Source: Escherichia coli (lineage in GTDB: Bacteria > Pseudomonadota > Gammaproteobacteria > Enterobacterales > Enterobacteriaceae). From it: a stretch of 64,000 nt of DNA. Location of the stretch: assembly GCF_024298765.1 (NCBI RefSeq), contig NZ_CP101210.1. One strand, 5' to 3'. The first letter of the stretch is position 1; every line of letters begins with the position of its first letter. The position numbers were made by a program, and so were the translations under genes. Shown piece by piece: positions 57,861-63,496 of the stretch. The notes under the pieces were generated by a model, which made no database searches, was not told where the DNA came from, and was given only the letters and a program-made list of their open reading frames with translations.

Positions 57861-59474
57861 TCAATGCTTCACAATATACATAGTCCGACTGTACGCCACA
57901 TCTTCCGGGTTATTAATGGGATAACCTTTCAGCCACGGCTTGATTAATCGTCCATTGGTATATTGATAAATTGGTGCAATCGGTGCTTGCTCCATGAGGA
58001 TTTTTTCTGCCGCATTGTAATCGGCATTACGCGCTTTAACGGTATTTTCCGTTGATGCCTGGGCCAGTACTTTGTCGTATGCCGGATTGTTAAAGCGTGA
58101 AATATTTCCTGAATGCGTTGACGTTAATAATGTCAGGAAAGTGGAGGGTTCATTATAATCCCCTACCCACGAGGCTCGGATAACATCAAAATTGCCGGTG
58201 TTACGGCTATCGATATAGGTTTTCCATTCCTGATTTTGCAATTTAACATCTAAGCCAAGGTTCTTTTTCCACATTGATGCTACAGCAATCGCAATTTTTT
58301 GATGGTTTTCTGAAGTGTTATACAAAAGCGTCAGCTTCAGCGGTTTTTGCGGACCATAACCAGCTGCGCTCAACAAAGTTTTTGCCTGCGCATTCAGTTC
58401 TTCCTGACTCATTTGTTCAAACGGCGAAGGTTCCGGCGTAAATCCTGCAGTAACATCTGGTGTAAAATGCCACGCTGGCTTTTCGCCCGTTCCCAACACT
58501 TTTTCGGTCATCAGGCGGCGATCTATCGTCATACTTAATGCCAGGCGAACACGCTGATCGGCCGTCGGCCCTTTTTGCGTGTTAAACGCATAATAATAGG
58601 TCCCGAGCTGTGGCGGCGTATAAACCTGCCCCGGAATATCCTTCAACAGCTTCTGATACATATTTTTCGGGAAGGATTCGGTGATATCAATATCCCCCGC
58701 GAGATAACGCTTAGTGGCTGCGGATTCCTGATTAATTGGCAGGAAGGTCACTTTTTGCAGCACCGTTTTGGCGTTATCCCAATAATGGGTATTCGGTACC
58801 ACGACCAGTTTTTCATTGACTACGCGCTCTTTAAGAACATAAGCGCCATTACCGATCAGATTTCCGGGTTTCGTCCACTCTTTACTGCTTTCTACGTTGG
58901 CTTTTTGCACCGGGAAGAAGGCAAAGTTAGCGGTTAAATTCACAAACCACGGCAACGGTTTATCAAGCTGGATTTTCAAAGTTTGGGCATCAACTGCGGT
59001 GACGCCAAGCTGGTCAGGCGCGGCTTTACCATCAATAATCGCCTGTGCGTTGTTGATTCCCGCCAGCGCGGCAAACCATGCAAATGGCGACAATGTTTTT
59101 GGGTCCACCAGACGTTGCCAGCTGTAGACAAAATCTTGCGCCGTTACCGGTGTGCCATCCGCCCATTTTGCGTTATCGCGCAGGGTAAAAGTCCAGATAC
59201 GGTTGTCATTACTTTTCCACTGAGTCGCAACGCCGGGGACAATCTCCCCTTTCTCGTTCTGATTCACCAGTCCTTCAAACAGATCGCGAATGACCTGAAT
59301 CTCTGGCAGGCCCACGGCTTTAGCGGGATCCAGCGACGCAGGCTCATCTTTAATGTGGCGCACCAGCTCCTGCTTCTCTGCCAGTACTGTGCCGCTCGGA
59401 ACTTCAGCAGCATACGAAAGAGAAATGCTGCTGACCAACAGCGCACAACACGTGACTGAAACAGAGTGCTTCAT
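57861..59474 (-). CDS. mppA: Periplasmic murein tripeptide-binding protein MppA
   Basis: ORF 57861..59495; start set at MKHSVSVTCCALLVSSISLSYA (537 aa, signal peptide); oligopeptide-binding fold. Confidence 0.9.
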   Translation of the reverse strand: MKHSVSVTCCALLVSSISLSYAAEVPSGTVLAEKQELVRHIKDEPASLDPAKAVGLPEIQVIRDLFEGLVNQNEKGEIVPGVATQWKSNDNRIWTFTLRDNAKWADGTPVTAQDFVYSWQRLVDPKTLSPFAWFAALAGINNAQAIIDGKAAPDQLGVTAVDAQTLKIQLDKPLPWFVNLTANFAFFPVQKANVESSKEWTKPGNLIGNGAYVLKERVVNEKLVVVPNTHYWDNAKTVLQKVTFLPINQESAATKRYLAGDIDITESFPKNMYQKLLKDIPGQVYTPPQLGTYYYAFNTQKGPTADQRVRLALSMTIDRRLMTEKVLGTGEKPAWHFTPDVTAGFTPEPSPFEQMSQEELNAQAKTLLSAAGYGPQKPLKLTLLYNTSENHQKIAIAVASMWKKNLGLDVKLQNQEWKTYIDSRNTGNFDVIRASWVGDYNEPSTFLTLLTSTHSGNISRFNNPAYDKVLAQASTENTVKARNADYNAAEKILMEQAPIAPIYQYTNGRLIKPWLKGYPINNPEDVAYSRTMYIVKH

Positions 59475-59531
59475 AAGTTTCCCTCTAACCGACATTAAAA
59501 TTGATGCGTAATTATTTGTTTCGCCTTAAAG

Positions 59532-59561
59532 AAATGCAAACAACTTCCATCAAAAAAGTGA
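59532..59561. promoter_or_regulatory. Conserved ~30-nt motif aaatgcaaacaacttcc-NN-caaaaaagtga (copy 1, 58-87 nt upstream of mppA start)
   Basis: 28/30 identity with copy 2 at 62643-62672. Confidence 0.5.
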
Positions 59562-59810
59562 CAAAGGAAGCATCAAATGTTTTAAGTATCAATATATCAA
59601 ATCAGATTTAGTGTAAATAATAGTCTCCAAAATGCGGTAAAGCACATAGAACTCCGAACACTACGTTCGGGCTTCGCACGTTCAAACCCGTTTTCGGTAT
59701 CATAATCAGCATCTGTCGCCATTGTACGAAGAATAAAAAATAACCAAAACGTTGAAAGGAACTGAGAATACGTTAAGAGAAAAATTAAATTAATGTATCA
59801 GCAAGTAGTG

Positions 59811-60710
59811 CTAAACAGCACCTTTATACTTCAGCCTATCTATAAATAATGAGAATGCCGAGCCAGCATGTCGACGGTGTGGATAGTACAGGTGATAACC
59901 GGGTAAATCTGGTGTGAATTTATCCAAAACACGTATCAGTTTTTTTTCTTTAATAGCCCGCTCAACCTGATCATAAGGTAGATACGCCAATCCATGCCCA
60001 TCAATTGCAGCATCAATGATCAGGTCTATCGTATTCAGTAAAAGCTGACCTTCCATGCGAACACGAACTTCACGTCCACCGCGTATTAATCTCCAGCGAT
60101 TTGCTGTACCCGATGTGGGAAGATACAAATTAATTGCCTGATGATCTATTAATTGTGACACTGAGGTTGGAGCACTTCGACGAGAAAAATAATCCGGTGA
60201 GCCAACAATAGCCATTGGTATATCTGGCCCGATTCGAATGGCGATCATATCTTTATCCATCTCCCCACCCAGACGGACGCCTGCATCAAAACGTTCAGAA
60301 ACGACATCGGTCAAACCATAATCAATGGTAAGCTGGATATCAATTTCAGGATGCGATTTCAGGAATGTGCGCATAGCTGGTAACAATATCGTTTTTGCTG
60401 CATGTTCTACAGTAGTAATACGTATTGTCCCGGATGGGCGGTTCTGCAGATCGCTCAGGGATGTCAGGGCAGAATCTATGTCATGCAACATAGGGCCAAG
60501 AACAGACAAAAGATGCTCGCCCGCTTCAGTGGGTACAACGCTGCGCGTGGTTCGTGTCAGAAGCCGCAATCCCAATCGTTCTTCTATACGGCGCACTATC
60601 TGGCTTAAAGCTGACTGCGCCATGCTCAGGCGGGCTGCTGCGCGAGTGAAGCTACGCTCCTCTGCAACGACGACAAACGCCATCAGATCAGCGATTTCTT
60701 CACGCTTCAT
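59811..60710 (-). CDS. pgrR: LysR-family regulator YcjZ (PgrR, regulator of peptidoglycan recycling)
   Basis: 299-aa ORF with N-terminal LysR HTH; divergent from ycjY. Confidence 0.9.
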   Translation of the reverse strand: MKREEIADLMAFVVVAEERSFTRAAARLSMAQSALSQIVRRIEERLGLRLLTRTTRSVVPTEAGEHLLSVLGPMLHDIDSALTSLSDLQNRPSGTIRITTVEHAAKTILLPAMRTFLKSHPEIDIQLTIDYGLTDVVSERFDAGVRLGGEMDKDMIAIRIGPDIPMAIVGSPDYFSRRSAPTSVSQLIDHQAINLYLPTSGTANRWRLIRGGREVRVRMEGQLLLNTIDLIIDAAIDGHGLAYLPYDQVERAIKEKKLIRVLDKFTPDLPGYHLYYPHRRHAGSAFSLFIDRLKYKGAV

Positions 60711-60749
60711 TCAGTATCTCCATACAATCTATTAATCATTTAAATGATA

Positions 60750-60777
60750 GGTCTAATCATGATTTTGGGTCTAATCA
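60750..60777. promoter_or_regulatory. Direct repeats ggtctaatca (x2, 18-bp period) plus palindrome atcatttaaatgat in the ycjZ-ycjY divergent promoter
   Basis: Read directly; candidate LysR-type operator. Confidence 0.4.
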
Positions 60778-60835
60778 ACTTAATGATCAATATCTATAGT
60801 GATATCACCAACCGTCAAAACGAACCGACAACTCC

Positions 60836-61768
60836 ATGAGGAACGGAATGATGAATAATAAAGTCAGCTTCACTAACAGCAATAATCCAACCATCTCTTT
60901 GTCTGCAGTGATCTATTTCCCTCCAAAATTTGATGAAACCCGTCAGTATCCGGCAATTGTGGTATCTCACCCAGGTGGGGGCGTTAAAGAGCAAACGGCT
61001 GGAACCTATGCCGAAAAACTGGCGGAAAAGGGATTTGTCACTATTGCTTATGACGCATCTTATCAAGGTGAAAGCGGCGGCGAGCCGCGTCAGTTAGAAA
61101 ACCCATACATTCGTACTGAAGACGTCAGTGCCGTGATTGATTACCTGACAACGCTTTCTTATGTCGACAATAGCCGAATTGGTGCGATGGGAATTTGTGC
61201 CGGTGCAGGATATACAGCCAATGCTGCAATTCAGGATCGCCGCATCAAGGCCATCGGTACTGTTAGTGCGGTCAATATTGGTTCGATGTTCCGTAATGGT
61301 TGGGAAAACAATGTGAAATCTATAGATGCCCTACCATACGTTGACGCGGGTTCAAACGCCCGAACCAGCGATATTAGCAGCAGAGAATACGCCACTATGC
61401 CACTGGCACCAATGAAGGAGTCCGATGCGCCGAACGAAGAACTGCGTCAGGCCTGGGAGTATTACCATACCCCTCGCGCGCAGTATCCAACAGCACCGGG
61501 TTACGCTACTTTGCGCAGCCTTAACCAGATTATTACCTATGATGCTTACCATATGGCGGAAGTGTACCTGACTCAGCCGATACAGATTGTGGCGGGCAGC
61601 CAGGCAGGGAGCAAATGGATGAGTGACGACCTGTACGATCGAGCATCAAGCCAGGATAAACGCTATCACATTGTTGAAGGCGCAAACCATATGGATCTTT
61701 ATGACGGCAAAGTCTATGTGGCTGAAGCAATTTCAGTATTAGCTCCGTTCTTTGAGGAAACTCTGTAA
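60836..61768 (+). CDS. ycjY: Alpha/beta-hydrolase YcjY
   Basis: 310-aa ORF (start may be a few codons later), synteny. Confidence 0.8.
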   Translation: MRNGMMNNKVSFTNSNNPTISLSAVIYFPPKFDETRQYPAIVVSHPGGGVKEQTAGTYAEKLAEKGFVTIAYDASYQGESGGEPRQLENPYIRTEDVSAVIDYLTTLSYVDNSRIGAMGICAGAGYTANAAIQDRRIKAIGTVSAVNIGSMFRNGWENNVKSIDALPYVDAGSNARTSDISSREYATMPLAPMKESDAPNEELRQAWEYYHTPRAQYPTAPGYATLRSLNQIITYDAYHMAEVYLTQPIQIVAGSQAGSKWMSDDLYDRASSQDKRYHIVEGANHMDLYDGKVYVAEAISVLAPFFEETL

Positions 61769-61838
61769 TGAAACATATTCAAATCCGTAATAGTGATATG
61801 GCCTGGCATATTGCTGCCAATAATCTGGGAAAAGTTTC

Positions 61839-62477
61839 ATGAAAAATGTACTGATTCTTGGTGCTGGCGGTCAGATAGCCCGCCATGTGATTAATCAACT
61901 GGCAGATAAACAAACCATTAAACAAACTTTATTTGCCCGTCAGCCAGCAAAAATCCACAAACCCTATCCCACTAATAGCAAGATTATTATGGGGGATGTA
62001 CTGAATCATGCAGCACTGAAGCAGGCCATGCAGGGACAGGATGTTGTGTATGCCAACCTTACGGGGGAAGATTTAGATATTCAGGCAAATTCAGTGATCG
62101 CTGCGATGAAAGCCGGTGATGTTAAACGTCTGATCTTTGTTCTTTCCCTCGGTATTTATGATGAAGTTCCAGGAAAATTTGGCGAATGGAATAATGCAGT
62201 TATTGGTGAACCCCTAAAACCATTCCGCAGGGCTGCAGATGCAATTGAGGCTTCTGGACTGGAATATACAATTCTTCGCCCTGCCTGGCTGACTGATGAA
62301 GATATTATTGATTATGAGCTTACCTCACGCAATGAACCATTCAAAGGTACGATCGTATCACGTAAGAGTGTCGCAGCATTAATTACAGATATCATCGATA
62401 AACCTGAGAAACACATTGGTGAGAATATAGGAATCAATCAACCCGGGACTGATGGCGATAAGCCATTCTTCATGTAA
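61839..62477 (+). CDS. ymjC: NAD(P)H-binding (NmrA/SDR-like) protein, intact ymjC/ymjD-type gene
   Basis: 212-aa uninterrupted ORF with Rossmann motif GAGGQIA. Confidence 0.7.
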   Translation: MKNVLILGAGGQIARHVINQLADKQTIKQTLFARQPAKIHKPYPTNSKIIMGDVLNHAALKQAMQGQDVVYANLTGEDLDIQANSVIAAMKAGDVKRLIFVLSLGIYDEVPGKFGEWNNAVIGEPLKPFRRAADAIEASGLEYTILRPAWLTDEDIIDYELTSRNEPFKGTIVSRKSVAALITDIIDKPEKHIGENIGINQPGTDGDKPFFM

Positions 62478-62495
62478 ATCAATTATATAGCTACC

Positions 62496-62530
62496 ATCGT
62501 ACTGTACTATGTGCAGTACGATTTATTAAA
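62496..62530 (+). terminator. Hairpin after ymjC (atcgtactg...cagtacgat) followed by T-rich run
   Basis: 9-bp perfect stem. Confidence 0.55.
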
Positions 62531-62642
62531 CTTATTAAGGTGAACTGATCAATCAGATGCGATTAACATGTGTAGAACCAGTAAGAATAAAATACGCCAT
62601 GTATATAACATTACGACAATTCTAATATCTGCACATCAATGA

Positions 62643-62672
62643 AAATGCAAACAACTTCCGGCAAAAAAGTGA
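62643..62672. promoter_or_regulatory. Conserved ~30-nt motif (copy 2, ~95-125 nt upstream of mpaA start)
   Basis: 28/30 identity with copy 1 at 59532-59561. Confidence 0.5.
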
Positions 62673-62767
62673 TACAAGATCGATAACATAGCGTTGAAGA
62701 AAAGGATTTGATAATCCGCAAAATTTGCACAACACTGCCTGTAATACTTCCTGAACCAGAGACGATC

Positions 62768-63496
62768 ATGACCGTAACTCGCCCACGCGCCGAACGCGGC
62801 GCATTTCCGCCCGGTACAGAACATTACGGACGTTCATTATTGGGCGCGCCGTTAATCTGGTTTCCGGCCCCTGCAGCCAGTCACGAAAGTGGTTTGATTC
62901 TGGCTGGCACTCACGGTGATGAAAACTCTTCGATCGTCACGCTCTCCTGTGCTCTGCGGACTTTGACACCGTCTTTGCGCCGCCATCATGTGGTGCTGTG
63001 TGTGAATCCTGACGGCTGCCAGTTAGGGTTACGGGCCAATGCTAATGGTGTGGATTTAAACCGAAACTTTCCGGCGGCGAACTGGAAGGAAGGTGAAACC
63101 GTTTATCGCTGGAACAGCGCCGCTGAAGAACGTGATGTCGTATTGCTGACAGGTGACAAACCTGGCTCCGAACCTGAAACCCAGGCGCTGTGCCAGCTTA
63201 TACACCGCATTCAACCTGCCTGGGTGGTCTCATTCCACGATCCGCTGGCCTGTATTGAAGATCCCAGACACAGCGAATTAGGTGAATGGCTGGCCCAGGC
63301 GTTTGAATTGCCTCTGGTAACCAGCGTCGGTTATGAAACGCCTGGCTCTTTCGGTAGTTGGTGTGCAGATCTCAACTTGCATTGCATCACCGCAGAGTTT
63401 CCACCCATCTCCTCCGACGAAGCCAGCGAAAAATATCTCTTTGCGATGGCAAACTTGCTGCGCTGGCATCCTAAAGATGCAATTCGCCCGTCGTGA
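62768..63496 (+). CDS. mpaA: Murein peptide amidase A (gamma-D-Glu-Dap amidase) MpaA
   Basis: ORF 62708..63496; start set at MTVTRPRAERGAFPPGTEHYG (242 aa); zinc-carboxypeptidase-like HxxE motif. Confidence 0.9.
   Translation: MTVTRPRAERGAFPPGTEHYGRSLLGAPLIWFPAPAASHESGLILAGTHGDENSSIVTLSCALRTLTPSLRRHHVVLCVNPDGCQLGLRANANGVDLNRNFPAANWKEGETVYRWNSAAEERDVVLLTGDKPGSEPETQALCQLIHRIQPAWVVSFHDPLACIEDPRHSELGEWLAQAFELPLVTSVGYETPGSFGSWCADLNLHCITAEFPPISSDEASEKYLFAMANLLRWHPKDAIRPS

What the first reader, a model, noticed from the sequence alone, without database searches (positions are those of the whole stretch)
59532..62672. Shared ~30-nt motif upstream of mppA and mpaA, flanking the regulator ycjZ (pgrR)
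aaatgcaaacaacttcc-NN-caaaaaagtga occurs at 59532-59561 and 62643-62672 with 28/30 identity, in intergenic DNA upstream of two genes of murein-peptide uptake and degradation. The LysR-type regulator between them, YcjZ, has been described as PgrR, a repressor of peptidoglycan-recycling genes. The motif is a strong candidate for a shared operator or promoter element, and the copy upstream of mpaA would mark an internal promoter within the ycjY-ymjC-mpaA cluster.
Basis: partly seen in the sequence, partly recalled or inferred. Interest (0 to 1): 0.45.

Follow-up and report, generated by a model that had tools for sequence, protein, structure and literature searches.

The report
Duplicated promoter scar flanking inserted genes
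The two 30-base copies are one old piece of the shared mppA/mpaA control region, duplicated when E. coli took up a three-gene foreign cassette (pgrR-ycjY-ymjC) between those genes; they are an insertion scar, not a shared binding site for the regulator PgrR.

Summary
A 30-nt direct repeat (28/30) lies at 59532-59561 and 62643-62672. It is unique in the window, and E. coli genomes carry two copies at most.

In 69 non-Escherichia species and several Escherichia lineages, mppA and mpaA are divergent neighbours about 182 bp apart with one copy of this sequence. Its first 10-12 nt are the conserved -35 region (TTGCAT on the minus strand) of a candidate mppA promoter.

In E. coli the two copies bound exactly a 3.08-kb AT-rich cassette, pgrR-ycjY-ymjC. 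This cassette is a truncated version of a LysR/hydrolase/SDR module found on Klebsiella and Rhizobium plasmids and in other chromosomal contexts. The repeat is therefore a 30-bp duplication of the target made by that insertion.

Of 5,426 complete E. coli genomes, 174 have the empty site. Six of these carry the copy-1-specific AT variant, which indicates precise loss of the cassette by recombination between the repeats.

The motif predates PgrR at this locus. The PgrR SELEX sites listed in a 2018 summary table do not include it. The conserved LysR box lies in the pgrR-ycjY spacer instead.

How a 30-bp duplication was made is unresolved. Modest interest.

The parts
59532..59561 (+). Repeat copy 1 (mppA side; derived AT at positions 18-19). 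On the - strand it carries the candidate mppA -35 hexamer (TTGCAT 59539-59534, or TTTGCA 59540-59535) and the T-rich stretch upstream of it.
62643..62672 (+). Repeat copy 2 (mpaA side; ancestral GG). It marks the point where ancestral mppA-mpaA spacer DNA resumes, about 96 nt upstream of the mpaA ATG.
59562..62642 (.). Inserted 3,081-bp cassette of foreign origin, bounded exactly by the two copies and absent from empty sites.
59511..59516 (-). Candidate mppA -10 hexamer (AATAAT), inside the block GTAATTATTTGTTTC that is nearly invariant across species. Its spacing to the -35 block is fixed in 72 of 75 sequences.
57861..59474 (-). mppA coding sequence (murein tripeptide binding protein).
59562..59810 (.). 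Left arm of the cassette: AT-rich DNA with no homology to the flanks of the same module in Raoultella or Salmonella beyond about 30 nt after the pgrR stop. RefSeq annotates a 75-nt queH pseudogene fragment here in O157:H7. It also holds a terminator-like hairpin at 59654-59670 (- strand).
59811..60710 (-). pgrR (ycjZ), LysR-type regulator of the cassette.
60735..60787 (.). Conserved LysR-box region in the pgrR-ycjY spacer (ATCATTTAAATGAT at 60735-60748; ATCAACTTAATGAT at 60774-60787). Conserved as far as a Rhizobium plasmid, and the likely PgrR operator.
60848..61768 (+). ycjY, alpha/beta hydrolase (first of two hydrolase genes in the full module).
61769..61842 (+). ymjD-type short ORF. It is the 5' remnant of the second hydrolase gene, left by an approximately 879-bp deletion relative to O157:H7-type genomes.
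61839..62477 (+). ymjC, intact NmrA-like SDR oxidoreductase (truncated after codon 46 in K-12-type genomes).
62496..62522 (+). Hairpin with a 12-bp stem followed by UUUAUU, just after ymjC. It is conserved in the Raoultella/Salmonella module, is a plausible terminator, and is removed by the K-12-type deletion.
62478..62642 (.). Right arm of the cassette. 62478 to about 62556 is homologous to the ymjC/adh_short spacer and the first codons of the next gene of the donor-type module. About 62557-62642 is of unknown origin.
62700..62750 (+). Ancestral mpaA-proximal conserved blocks (AAAAGGATTTGAT 62700-62712; ATTTGCACAACACTG 62723-62737; TGTAATACT 62740-62748). This is the candidate mpaA promoter/operator region, outside the motif.
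62768..63496 (+). mpaA coding sequence (murein tripeptide amidase).

Best explanation
The two copies are a 30-bp duplication of one stretch of the ancestral divergent mppA/mpaA control region, created when a roughly 4-kb piece of foreign DNA was inserted there in an ancestor of E. coli. That piece carried a LysR regulator gene, two hydrolase genes and an NmrA-like SDR gene; in this window it has decayed to pgrR-ycjY-ymjC, 3.08 kb.

Shown here:
- Relatives have a single copy with continuous flanks.
- The cassette boundaries coincide exactly with the repeat edges.
- The cassette is of foreign origin.
- Some genomes have lost the cassette precisely.

Inferred:
- Before the insertion, the first 10-12 nt of the 30-mer formed the -35 region of the mppA promoter (TTGCAT-N17-AATAAT on the minus strand). 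The rest covered roughly -36 to -57 of that promoter, an UP-element-like T-tract.
- After the insertion, copy 1 keeps that role for mppA. Copy 2 is the distal end of mpaA's native upstream region; its own -35-like part is now useless and is decaying in some lineages.
- The two direct repeats act as substrates for precise deletion of the cassette.

The enzymology that produced a 30-bp duplication is not known. The cassette ends are arbitrary pieces of donor genes, and no recombinase gene is present. I therefore favour fill-in repair of a staggered break, or a replication template switch that re-copied 30 nt, over site-specific integration.
For: (1) Empty sites. E. coli MFDS1019527 has the copy-1 left flank, one motif, then the copy-2 right flank and mpaA. 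174 of 5,426 complete E. coli genomes have this arrangement.
(2) In the genome-contig scan with MpaA, about 70 species show mppA and mpaA as divergent neighbours about 182 bp apart, with one motif at the same position. These include Citrobacter, Enterobacter, Leclercia, Kluyvera, Raoultella, Pluralibacter, E. albertii and E. whittamii. The cassette is found only in E. coli and Escherichia sp. E1V33.
(3) Junction table: the flanks of the single copy match the copy-1 left flank and the copy-2 right flank, and mismatches begin immediately outside the 30 nt.
(4) Foreign origin. PgrR homologues of 88-89% identity sit in a conserved LysR<->hydrolase-hydrolase-SDR(-SDR-OYE) module in Raoultella and Salmonella chromosomes, on conjugative Klebsiella plasmids, and on a Rhizobium tropici plasmid beside IS21 and integrases. 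The cassette arms have 36-39% G+C against about 50-55% for the flanks. The right arm contains the start of the next gene of the donor module.
(5) Precise excision. Six genomes match 330/330 a construct made of the left flank, the motif with copy-1-specific AT, and the copy-2 right flank. GG is the state in copy 2 and in most other Escherichia sequences.
(6) Promoter role. The scan finds TTTGCA-18-AATAAT on the minus strand at 59540-59511. Identity to E. coli across the 69 non-Escherichia loci is 0.83 for motif nt 1-12, 0.56 for nt 13-22 and 0.81 for nt 23-30, against 0.55 for the rest of the spacer. The -10/-35 spacing is fixed in 72 of 75 sequences.
(7) Differential decay. Copy 2 is AAATACAAAC (hexamer spoiled) in O157:H7 and strain A42. 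Copy 1 keeps AAATGCAAAC in all genomes examined, while its distal part changes: AT, and a 1-nt deletion in O157.
Against: - No transcription start site for mppA or mpaA was available, so the promoter assignment rests on consensus and conservation only.
- A 30-bp target duplication is longer than those made by known transposition systems, and no mechanism was demonstrated.
- The ST648-type empty sites (GG, with E. coli-type flanks) could be either excision products or the pre-insertion haplotype.
- The six AT-type empty sites may be one clone, and so a single event.
- The decay pattern rests on only a handful of sequences.
Confidence: 0.85

Rival explanations
1. One reading: the 30-mer is a shared operator for PgrR (YcjZ) that co-regulates mppA and mpaA, and copy 2 marks an internal promoter.
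For: Both copies are upstream of murein-peptide genes and flank pgrR. A summary table lists ycjY-ymjDC-mpaA in the PgrR regulon. Copy 1 contains ATCAAAAAAGTGAC, a one-mismatch version of the ATCA-N6-TGAT dyads of the pgrR-ycjY spacer, and the derived GG>AT change created its left half.
Against: The motif exists as a single copy in 69 species with no pgrR at the locus, so it predates PgrR here. The listed PgrR SELEX sites include the ycjY/ycjZ spacer but not mppA upstream or the ymjC-mpaA spacer. Dyads with at most one mismatch occur 77 times in the 64-kb window, so the match in copy 1 is at chance level; copy 2 has two mismatches. The copies have opposite orientations relative to the two genes. 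The conserved mpaA-proximal blocks lie outside the motif.
Confidence: 0.05
2. The repeats are attL/attR core sites of an integrative element that entered by site-specific (tyrosine or serine recombinase) recombination at a 30-bp attB in the mppA-mpaA spacer.
For: 30-bp near-identical direct repeats and precise excision products are typical of att sites. The K-12-type 664-bp deletion ends within 1 nt of the left edge of copy 2. An independent cdtABC-like island in S. arizonae/diarizonae has its junction inside the same 30-nt zone. The module sits next to integrase genes on a Rhizobium plasmid.
Against: There is no integrase or other recombinase gene in or next to the cassette. The cassette ends are arbitrary fragments of donor genes, not defined element ends. 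No flanking repeats surround the same module in Klebsiella, Raoultella or Salmonella. The arms share no inverted repeats. The Salmonella island replaced DNA without any duplication.
Confidence: 0.08
3. Both copies still bind one unidentified factor, inherited from the ancestral bidirectional control region, so the duplication preserved co-regulation of mppA and mpaA. This is compatible with the insertion origin.
For: The last 8 nt of the motif (AAAGTGA/T) are conserved at 0.81 against a 0.55 background, and this block is kept in both copies in all E. coli examined.
Against: No factor or known consensus matches. The block lies at about -50 to -57 of the candidate mppA promoter, where a T-tract UP element would explain the conservation. 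For mpaA it would lie about 70-100 nt upstream of the candidate core promoter. In O157:H7, copy 1 has an indel in this part.
Confidence: 0.15

Closest known systems
Target-site duplications / flanking direct repeats of inserted genomic islets
   Same: Two direct copies of a host sequence bound the inserted DNA exactly. Relatives have one copy at an uninterrupted site. Recombination between the copies restores the empty site.
   Different: The duplication is 30 bp, far longer than the 2-14 bp made by transposases. There is no transposase and there are no terminal inverted repeats. The inserted DNA is an arbitrary chunk of a donor gene cluster.
attL/attR core repeats of integrase-mobilised islands and prophages
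   Same: The repeat length (tens of bp), direct orientation and precise excision.
   Different: There is no integrase, no defined element ends and no tRNA or other classic attB. The same module elsewhere has no such repeats.
Repeat duplication during CRISPR spacer integration (Cas1-Cas2 staggered cuts about 28-37 nt apart) and casposon insertion (14-15 bp). Recalled from general knowledge as a mechanistic analogy only.
   Same: A long (about 30 nt) duplication of the target flanks the newly inserted DNA, produced by staggered cleavage plus fill-in.
   Different: There are no cas genes or CRISPR features here, and the insert is 3-4 kb of ordinary genes. Nothing was tested.
Sigma-70 promoter -35 hexamer with UP-element-like upstream tract
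   Same: TTGCAT-N17-AATAAT with fixed spacing, strong conservation across genera, and a T-rich tract at about -40 to -57.
   Different: No mapped start site. After the duplication a second, orphan copy points into ymjC, where it could at most drive antisense transcription.
LysR-type operator (T-N11-A / ATCA-N6-TGAT dyads) of PgrR
   Same: Copy 1 has a one-mismatch dyad.
   Different: The conserved boxes are in the pgrR-ycjY spacer. The motif match is at chance frequency and the motif predates pgrR at the locus.

Membership tests
Flanking direct repeats (target duplication) of an inserted DNA segment | Two direct copies bound the inserted segment exactly | tested here: met
   Copies at 59532-59561 and 62643-62672. 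Sequence immediately outside each copy on the cassette side has no counterpart in empty sites.
Flanking direct repeats (target duplication) of an inserted DNA segment | Relatives have one copy with continuous flanks (empty site) | tested here: met
   174 E. coli genomes and about 70 other species, with the motif at the same offset from the mpaA ATG.
Flanking direct repeats (target duplication) of an inserted DNA segment | Inserted segment is of foreign origin | tested here: met
   The homologous module occurs in other chromosomal contexts and on plasmids. The arms have low G+C. The right arm holds a donor-gene fragment.
Flanking direct repeats (target duplication) of an inserted DNA segment | Precise loss by recombination between the copies | tested here: met
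   Six genomes have an empty site carrying the copy-1-specific AT, identical at 330/330 to the predicted product.
PgrR (LysR-type) operator | Bound by PgrR | not testable with these tools
   Literature only: the SELEX sites listed in PMC5934670 include ycjY/ycjZ but no site at mppA upstream or the ymjC-mpaA spacer. The original 2013 paper is not held.
PgrR (LysR-type) operator | Resembles the conserved box of the regulator's own divergent spacer beyond chance | tested here: not met
   The box ATCA-N6-TGAT is conserved from E. coli to Rhizobium. Copy 1 has 1 mismatch and copy 2 has 2. There are 77 matches with at most 1 mismatch in 64 kb.
PgrR (LysR-type) operator | Co-occurs with the regulator gene across genomes | tested here: not met
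   The motif is present in 69 non-Escherichia loci without pgrR at the locus.
att sites of an integrase-mobilised element | Recombinase gene in or beside the element | tested here: not met
   Only pgrR, ycjY, the ymjD remnant and ymjC lie between the repeats; the flanks are mppA and mpaA.
att sites of an integrase-mobilised element | Same element ends and repeats at other insertion sites | tested here: not met
   No flanking repeats surround the module in Klebsiella plasmid, Raoultella or Salmonella loci. The arms are not homologous to those contexts.
Transposon / insertion sequence | Terminal inverted repeats, a transposase, and a short target duplication | tested here: not met
   No inverted repeats link the arms. 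There is no transposase ORF. The duplication is 30 bp.
Dispersed intergenic repeat family (REP/ERIC/MITE-like) | Many copies per genome at unrelated loci | tested here: not met
   Median 2 places per genome, 10,654 places in 5,418 genomes. Two copies in the 64-kb window. No Rfam family above threshold.
Sigma-70 promoter of mppA | -35 and -10 hexamers with 17±1 spacing, conserved in orthologous regions | tested here: met
   TTTGCA-18-AATAAT (or TTGCAT-17-AATAAT) on the minus strand. Both blocks are nearly invariant, and the spacing is fixed in 72 of 75 sequences.
Sigma-70 promoter of mppA | Mapped transcription start downstream of the -10 | not tested
   No start-site data found in the held literature.

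The most novel reading that the evidence does not exclude
The edges of the 30-mer are a preferred cutting or joining site for an unrecognised recombination activity that makes cuts about 30 nt apart. On this reading three things would be footprints of one site-directed process rather than coincidences: the original insertion with its 30-bp duplication; the K-12-type 664-bp deletion that ends within 1 nt of the left edge of copy 2; and the Salmonella cdtABC-like island junction inside the same 30-nt zone.
Probability: 0.07. Interest if true: 0.6.

Novelty: new member of a known kind. Interest (0 to 1): 0.3.

Why it matters
It corrects a tempting regulatory reading. Two identical sequences upstream of functionally linked genes are here a scar of horizontal gene insertion, not a shared operator.

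It also puts PgrR in context. PgrR is the resident LysR regulator of an imported hydrolase/oxidoreductase module that landed between two murein-peptide genes. In genomes like this window, an intact ymjC, a terminator-like hairpin and mpaA's native upstream region separate mpaA from the ycjY operon. In K-12-type genomes (about 40% of complete genomes, judged from an evenly spaced sample) a 664-bp deletion removes the hairpin. The reported PgrR control of mpaA may therefore be a lineage-specific read-through effect. This is an inference and is directly testable.

The 30-bp repeats also make the cassette precisely losable, and natural excision products exist.

Tried and rejected
- PgrR-box idea. 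Copy 1's ATCAAAAAAGTGAC resembles the ATCA-N6-TGAT dyads of the pgrR-ycjY spacer, but such one-mismatch matches occur 77 times in the window, so I rejected it as evidence.
- CRP site. A ChIP table row labelled ycjZ/mppA in PMC4287617 gives CGTGAACCGGGTCACA. That sequence is absent from the window and lies in the abgA/abgR spacer of ETEC H10407, so it is irrelevant. A generic CRP-consensus scan of the window was at background level and listed no match at copy 1; 15 of its 215 matches were not shown.
- Rfam scan of 59300-63000: only a sub-threshold RAGATH-10 hit inside pgrR.
- Transposon or MITE origin: no inverted repeats between the arms.
- Flanking repeats around the same module elsewhere: none.
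- The RefSeq 'queH fragment' in the left arm: six-frame pieces of both arms gave no NCBIfam hit, so it is unconfirmed.
- Search for the immediate donor of the arms: the plasmid search found homology only from the pgrR stop onward.
- Attempt to fetch a Salmonella enterica empty site through MpaA homologues returned no Salmonella cluster. Citrobacter and Escherichia spacers were used instead.
- The original PgrR paper (Genes Cells 2013) is not held.
- Microhomology explanation for the K-12 deletion junction: only 1 nt is shared, and an in-register crossover with an imperfect AA..GCAA match does not give the observed junction (read).
Full report
**Observation.** The window carries AAATGCAAACAACTTCCATCAAAAAAGTGA at 59532-59561 and AAATGCAAACAACTTCCGGCAAAAAAGTGA at 62643-62672, both on the + strand and 28/30 identical. 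No shuffle of the window gave a match. The region is E. coli, with its best match at 100% to strain MSHS 133. The genes are mppA (-, 57861-59474), pgrR/ycjZ (-, 59811-60710), ycjY (+), an intact ymjC (+, 61839-62477) and mpaA (+, ATG at 62768). Because mppA is on the minus strand and both copies are on the plus strand, the motif has opposite orientations relative to the two genes it precedes.

**What the repeat is.**
- A spread of hits across 5,426 complete E. coli genomes included a strain in which only the outer parts of the query matched. Reading it showed the mppA 5' end, the left flank of copy 1, a single motif, the right flank of copy 2 and mpaA, with no pgrR-ycjY-ymjC.
- 174 genomes have such an empty site.
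- A scan of one genome per species with MpaA returned 80 loci. In about 70 species, mppA and mpaA are divergent neighbours about 182 bp apart with one copy of the motif at a constant offset. These include Citrobacter, Enterobacter, Leclercia, Kluyvera, Raoultella, Pluralibacter and Trabulsiella, and also E. albertii, E. whittamii and other Escherichia lineages.
- The cassette occurs only in E. coli and in Escherichia sp. E1V33.
- A junction table shows that identity between the single-copy sites and the two E. coli copies stops exactly at the edges of the 30-mer.
- The ancestral state is therefore one copy. The E. coli pair is a 30-bp duplication made when 59562-62642 was inserted.

**Origin of the insert.**
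- PgrR has 88-89% identical homologues in Raoultella, Klebsiella, Salmonella, Kluyvera and Citrobacter.
- Their context is a conserved module: LysR gene, divergent from two alpha/beta hydrolase genes, an NmrA-like SDR (the ymjC homologue), then often a second SDR and an OYE flavoenzyme.
- The four-gene core is also on conjugative Klebsiella plasmids, and on a Rhizobium tropici plasmid between IS21 and integrase genes.
- O157:H7-type E. coli still has both hydrolase genes. In the window, the short ORF between ycjY and ymjC (ymjD) is the 5' remnant of the second one.
- The right arm of the cassette continues into the spacer and the first codons of the next gene of the donor-type module, then becomes unrelated DNA. 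The left arm loses homology about 30 nt after the pgrR stop.
- The arms have 36-39% G+C.
- No recombinase or transposase gene, no terminal inverted repeats and no flanking repeats around the module elsewhere were found.
- The insert therefore looks like an arbitrary chunk of a donor cluster, not a self-mobile element.

**What the 30-mer did before the insertion.**
- An alignment of 74 single-copy spacers shows two nearly invariant blocks on the mppA side: GTAATTATTTGTTTC and GAAATGCAAA, with fixed spacing (72 of 75 sequences). On the minus strand these read TTGCAT-N17-AATAAT.
- The consensus scan reports the same site at 59540-59511. The first 10-12 nt of the motif are therefore the -35 region of a candidate mppA promoter.
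- Identity to E. coli across 69 non-Escherichia loci is 0.83 for nt 1-12, 0.56 for nt 13-22 and 0.81 for nt 23-30, against 0.55 for the rest of the spacer.
- The last block (AAAGTGA/T) would lie at about -50 to -57. I read it as an UP-element-like tract or an unknown factor site; this is inference.
- The mpaA-proximal conserved blocks, notably ATTTGCACAACACTG at 62723-62737, lie outside the motif and remain intact to the right of copy 2.

**After the insertion.**
- Copy 1 keeps AAATGCAAAC in every E. coli examined, while its distal part changed: GG>AT, and a 1-nt deletion in O157:H7.
- Copy 2 keeps the distal part, but has AAATACAAAC, which spoils the hexamer, in O157:H7 and strain A42.
- This fits a division of labour between the copies, but rests on few sequences.

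**The repeats as recombination substrates.** I built the predicted excision product carrying the copy-1-specific AT. Six genomes match it at 330/330. Copy 2 and most other Escherichia sequences have GG at that position, so these sites are best explained by recombination between the two copies, or between copy 1 and a single copy in another genome, within the last 11 nt. Most other empty sites (ST648 type) have E. coli-type flanks with GG. They may be excision products with a crossover in the first 17 nt, or the haplotype in which the insertion occurred. A third group has outgroup-like flanks and looks like an old empty allele.

A shared PgrR operator is not supported.
- The motif predates pgrR at this locus.
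- A summary table of Genomic SELEX results lists the ycjY/ycjZ spacer but neither motif position.
- The LysR-hydrolase spacer holds a footprint conserved from E. coli to Rhizobium, with ATCA-N6-TGAT dyads at 60735 and 60774.
- Copy 1's one-mismatch dyad is at chance level.
- The motif is not a dispersed repeat and matches no RNA family.

**A by-product concerning PgrR.** In window-type genomes, ymjC is followed by a 12-bp-stem hairpin with a U-rich tail. The hairpin is conserved in the donor-type module. It is followed by 120 nt of arm, copy 2 and mpaA's native upstream region. K-12/BL21-type genomes are about 40% of complete genomes, judged from an evenly spaced sample. They lack 61979-62642, so truncated ymjC abuts copy 2. 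The published ycjY-ymjDC-mpaA operon under PgrR may therefore reflect that deletion rather than an ancestral regulatory design. This is inference, testable by RT-PCR.

**Unresolved.**
- How a 30-bp duplication arose. I favour a staggered break with fill-in, or a template switch that re-copied 30 nt. Site-specific integration is less likely, because no recombinase and no defined element ends are present.
- The K-12-type deletion ends within 1 nt of the left edge of copy 2.
- In S. arizonae/diarizonae an unrelated cdtABC-like island lies between mppA and mpaA. Its junction is inside the same 30-nt zone, and there is no duplication.
- These coincidences leave a small probability that the edges of the 30-mer are a recombination hotspot.

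**Verdict.** This is a real feature with a mostly ordinary explanation: an insertion scar that overlaps a conserved promoter element. It is a new example of a known kind and of modest interest.

Noticed in passing
L024 2848-6000 and L025 (Salmonella enterica subsp. arizonae / diarizonae): A different, roughly 3.1-kb insert lies between mppA and mpaA. It has three ORFs that look like cytolethal distending toxin genes: lipoprotein-like 270 aa, CdtB-like 275 aa and 191 aa (assigned by eye, not searched). The mpaA-proximal conserved blocks are kept and the mppA promoter blocks are replaced. Homology to the ancestral spacer resumes inside the 30-mer zone, and there is no duplication.
   Followed up: partly
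window 61979-62642; L002 4160-4180; L005 5860-5880: The K-12/BL21-type 664-bp deletion truncates ymjC after codon 46 and ends within 1 nt of the left edge of repeat copy 2, with only 1 nt of microhomology. The identical junction is present in Escherichia sp. E1V33. There, copy 1 has the cryptic-clade variant (T at position 10) and copy 2 the E. coli variant, which suggests import by recombination.
   Followed up: partly
L001 1621-3066 (E. coli MFDS1019527): A prophage with a tyrosine integrase gene is inserted in the 5' part of mppA, leaving a 66-nt mppA fragment next to an empty-site spacer.
   Followed up: no
window 61769-61842; L089 1848-3698: ymjD is the 5' remnant of a second alpha/beta hydrolase gene. 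O157:H7-type genomes (about 23% of an evenly spaced sample) keep both genes, the second frameshifted in strain F7349. The cassette is decaying stepwise in different lineages; strain A42 has further deletions in pgrR and ycjY.
   Followed up: yes
window 62723-62737: ATTTGCACAACACTG (TTTTGCACAACACTG in most species) upstream of mpaA is almost invariant across 69 species, more so than a typical promoter hexamer. No factor was assigned.
   Followed up: no
window 60735-60787: The pgrR-ycjY spacer has a footprint (ATTAATCATTTAAATGATAGGTCTAATCA ... GTCTAATCA) conserved in Klebsiella plasmid, Raoultella, Salmonella and Rhizobium plasmid copies of the module. It is a likely PgrR box.
   Followed up: partly
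window about 59638-59712 (equivalent to L089 639-713): RefSeq annotates a 75-nt 'epoxyqueuosine reductase QueH' pseudogene fragment in the left arm of the cassette in O157:H7. Six-frame pieces gave no NCBIfam hit here.
   Followed up: partly
L095 1518-1533 (ETEC H10407, abgA/abgR spacer): The CRP ChIP-seq site listed as 'ycjZ/mppA' in the text of PMC4287617 lies, in RefSeq coordinates, between abgA and abgR. It has no match within 3 mismatches anywhere in the window.
   Followed up: yes
L093 3002-6550; L094 47-8514: The LysR, two-hydrolase and NmrA-like SDR module is carried on a conjugative Klebsiella aerogenes plasmid. It is also on Rhizobium tropici pRtrCIAT899a between an IS21 element and tyrosine recombinase genes, so it is a widely travelling accessory module of unknown substrate.
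   Followed up: partly
window 62539-62534 with 62516-62511, - strand: The orphan TTGCAT in copy 2 is followed 17 nt downstream by TATTAG. It could in principle drive weak antisense transcription into ymjC. This was read by eye only and is not reported by the promoter scan.
   Followed up: no
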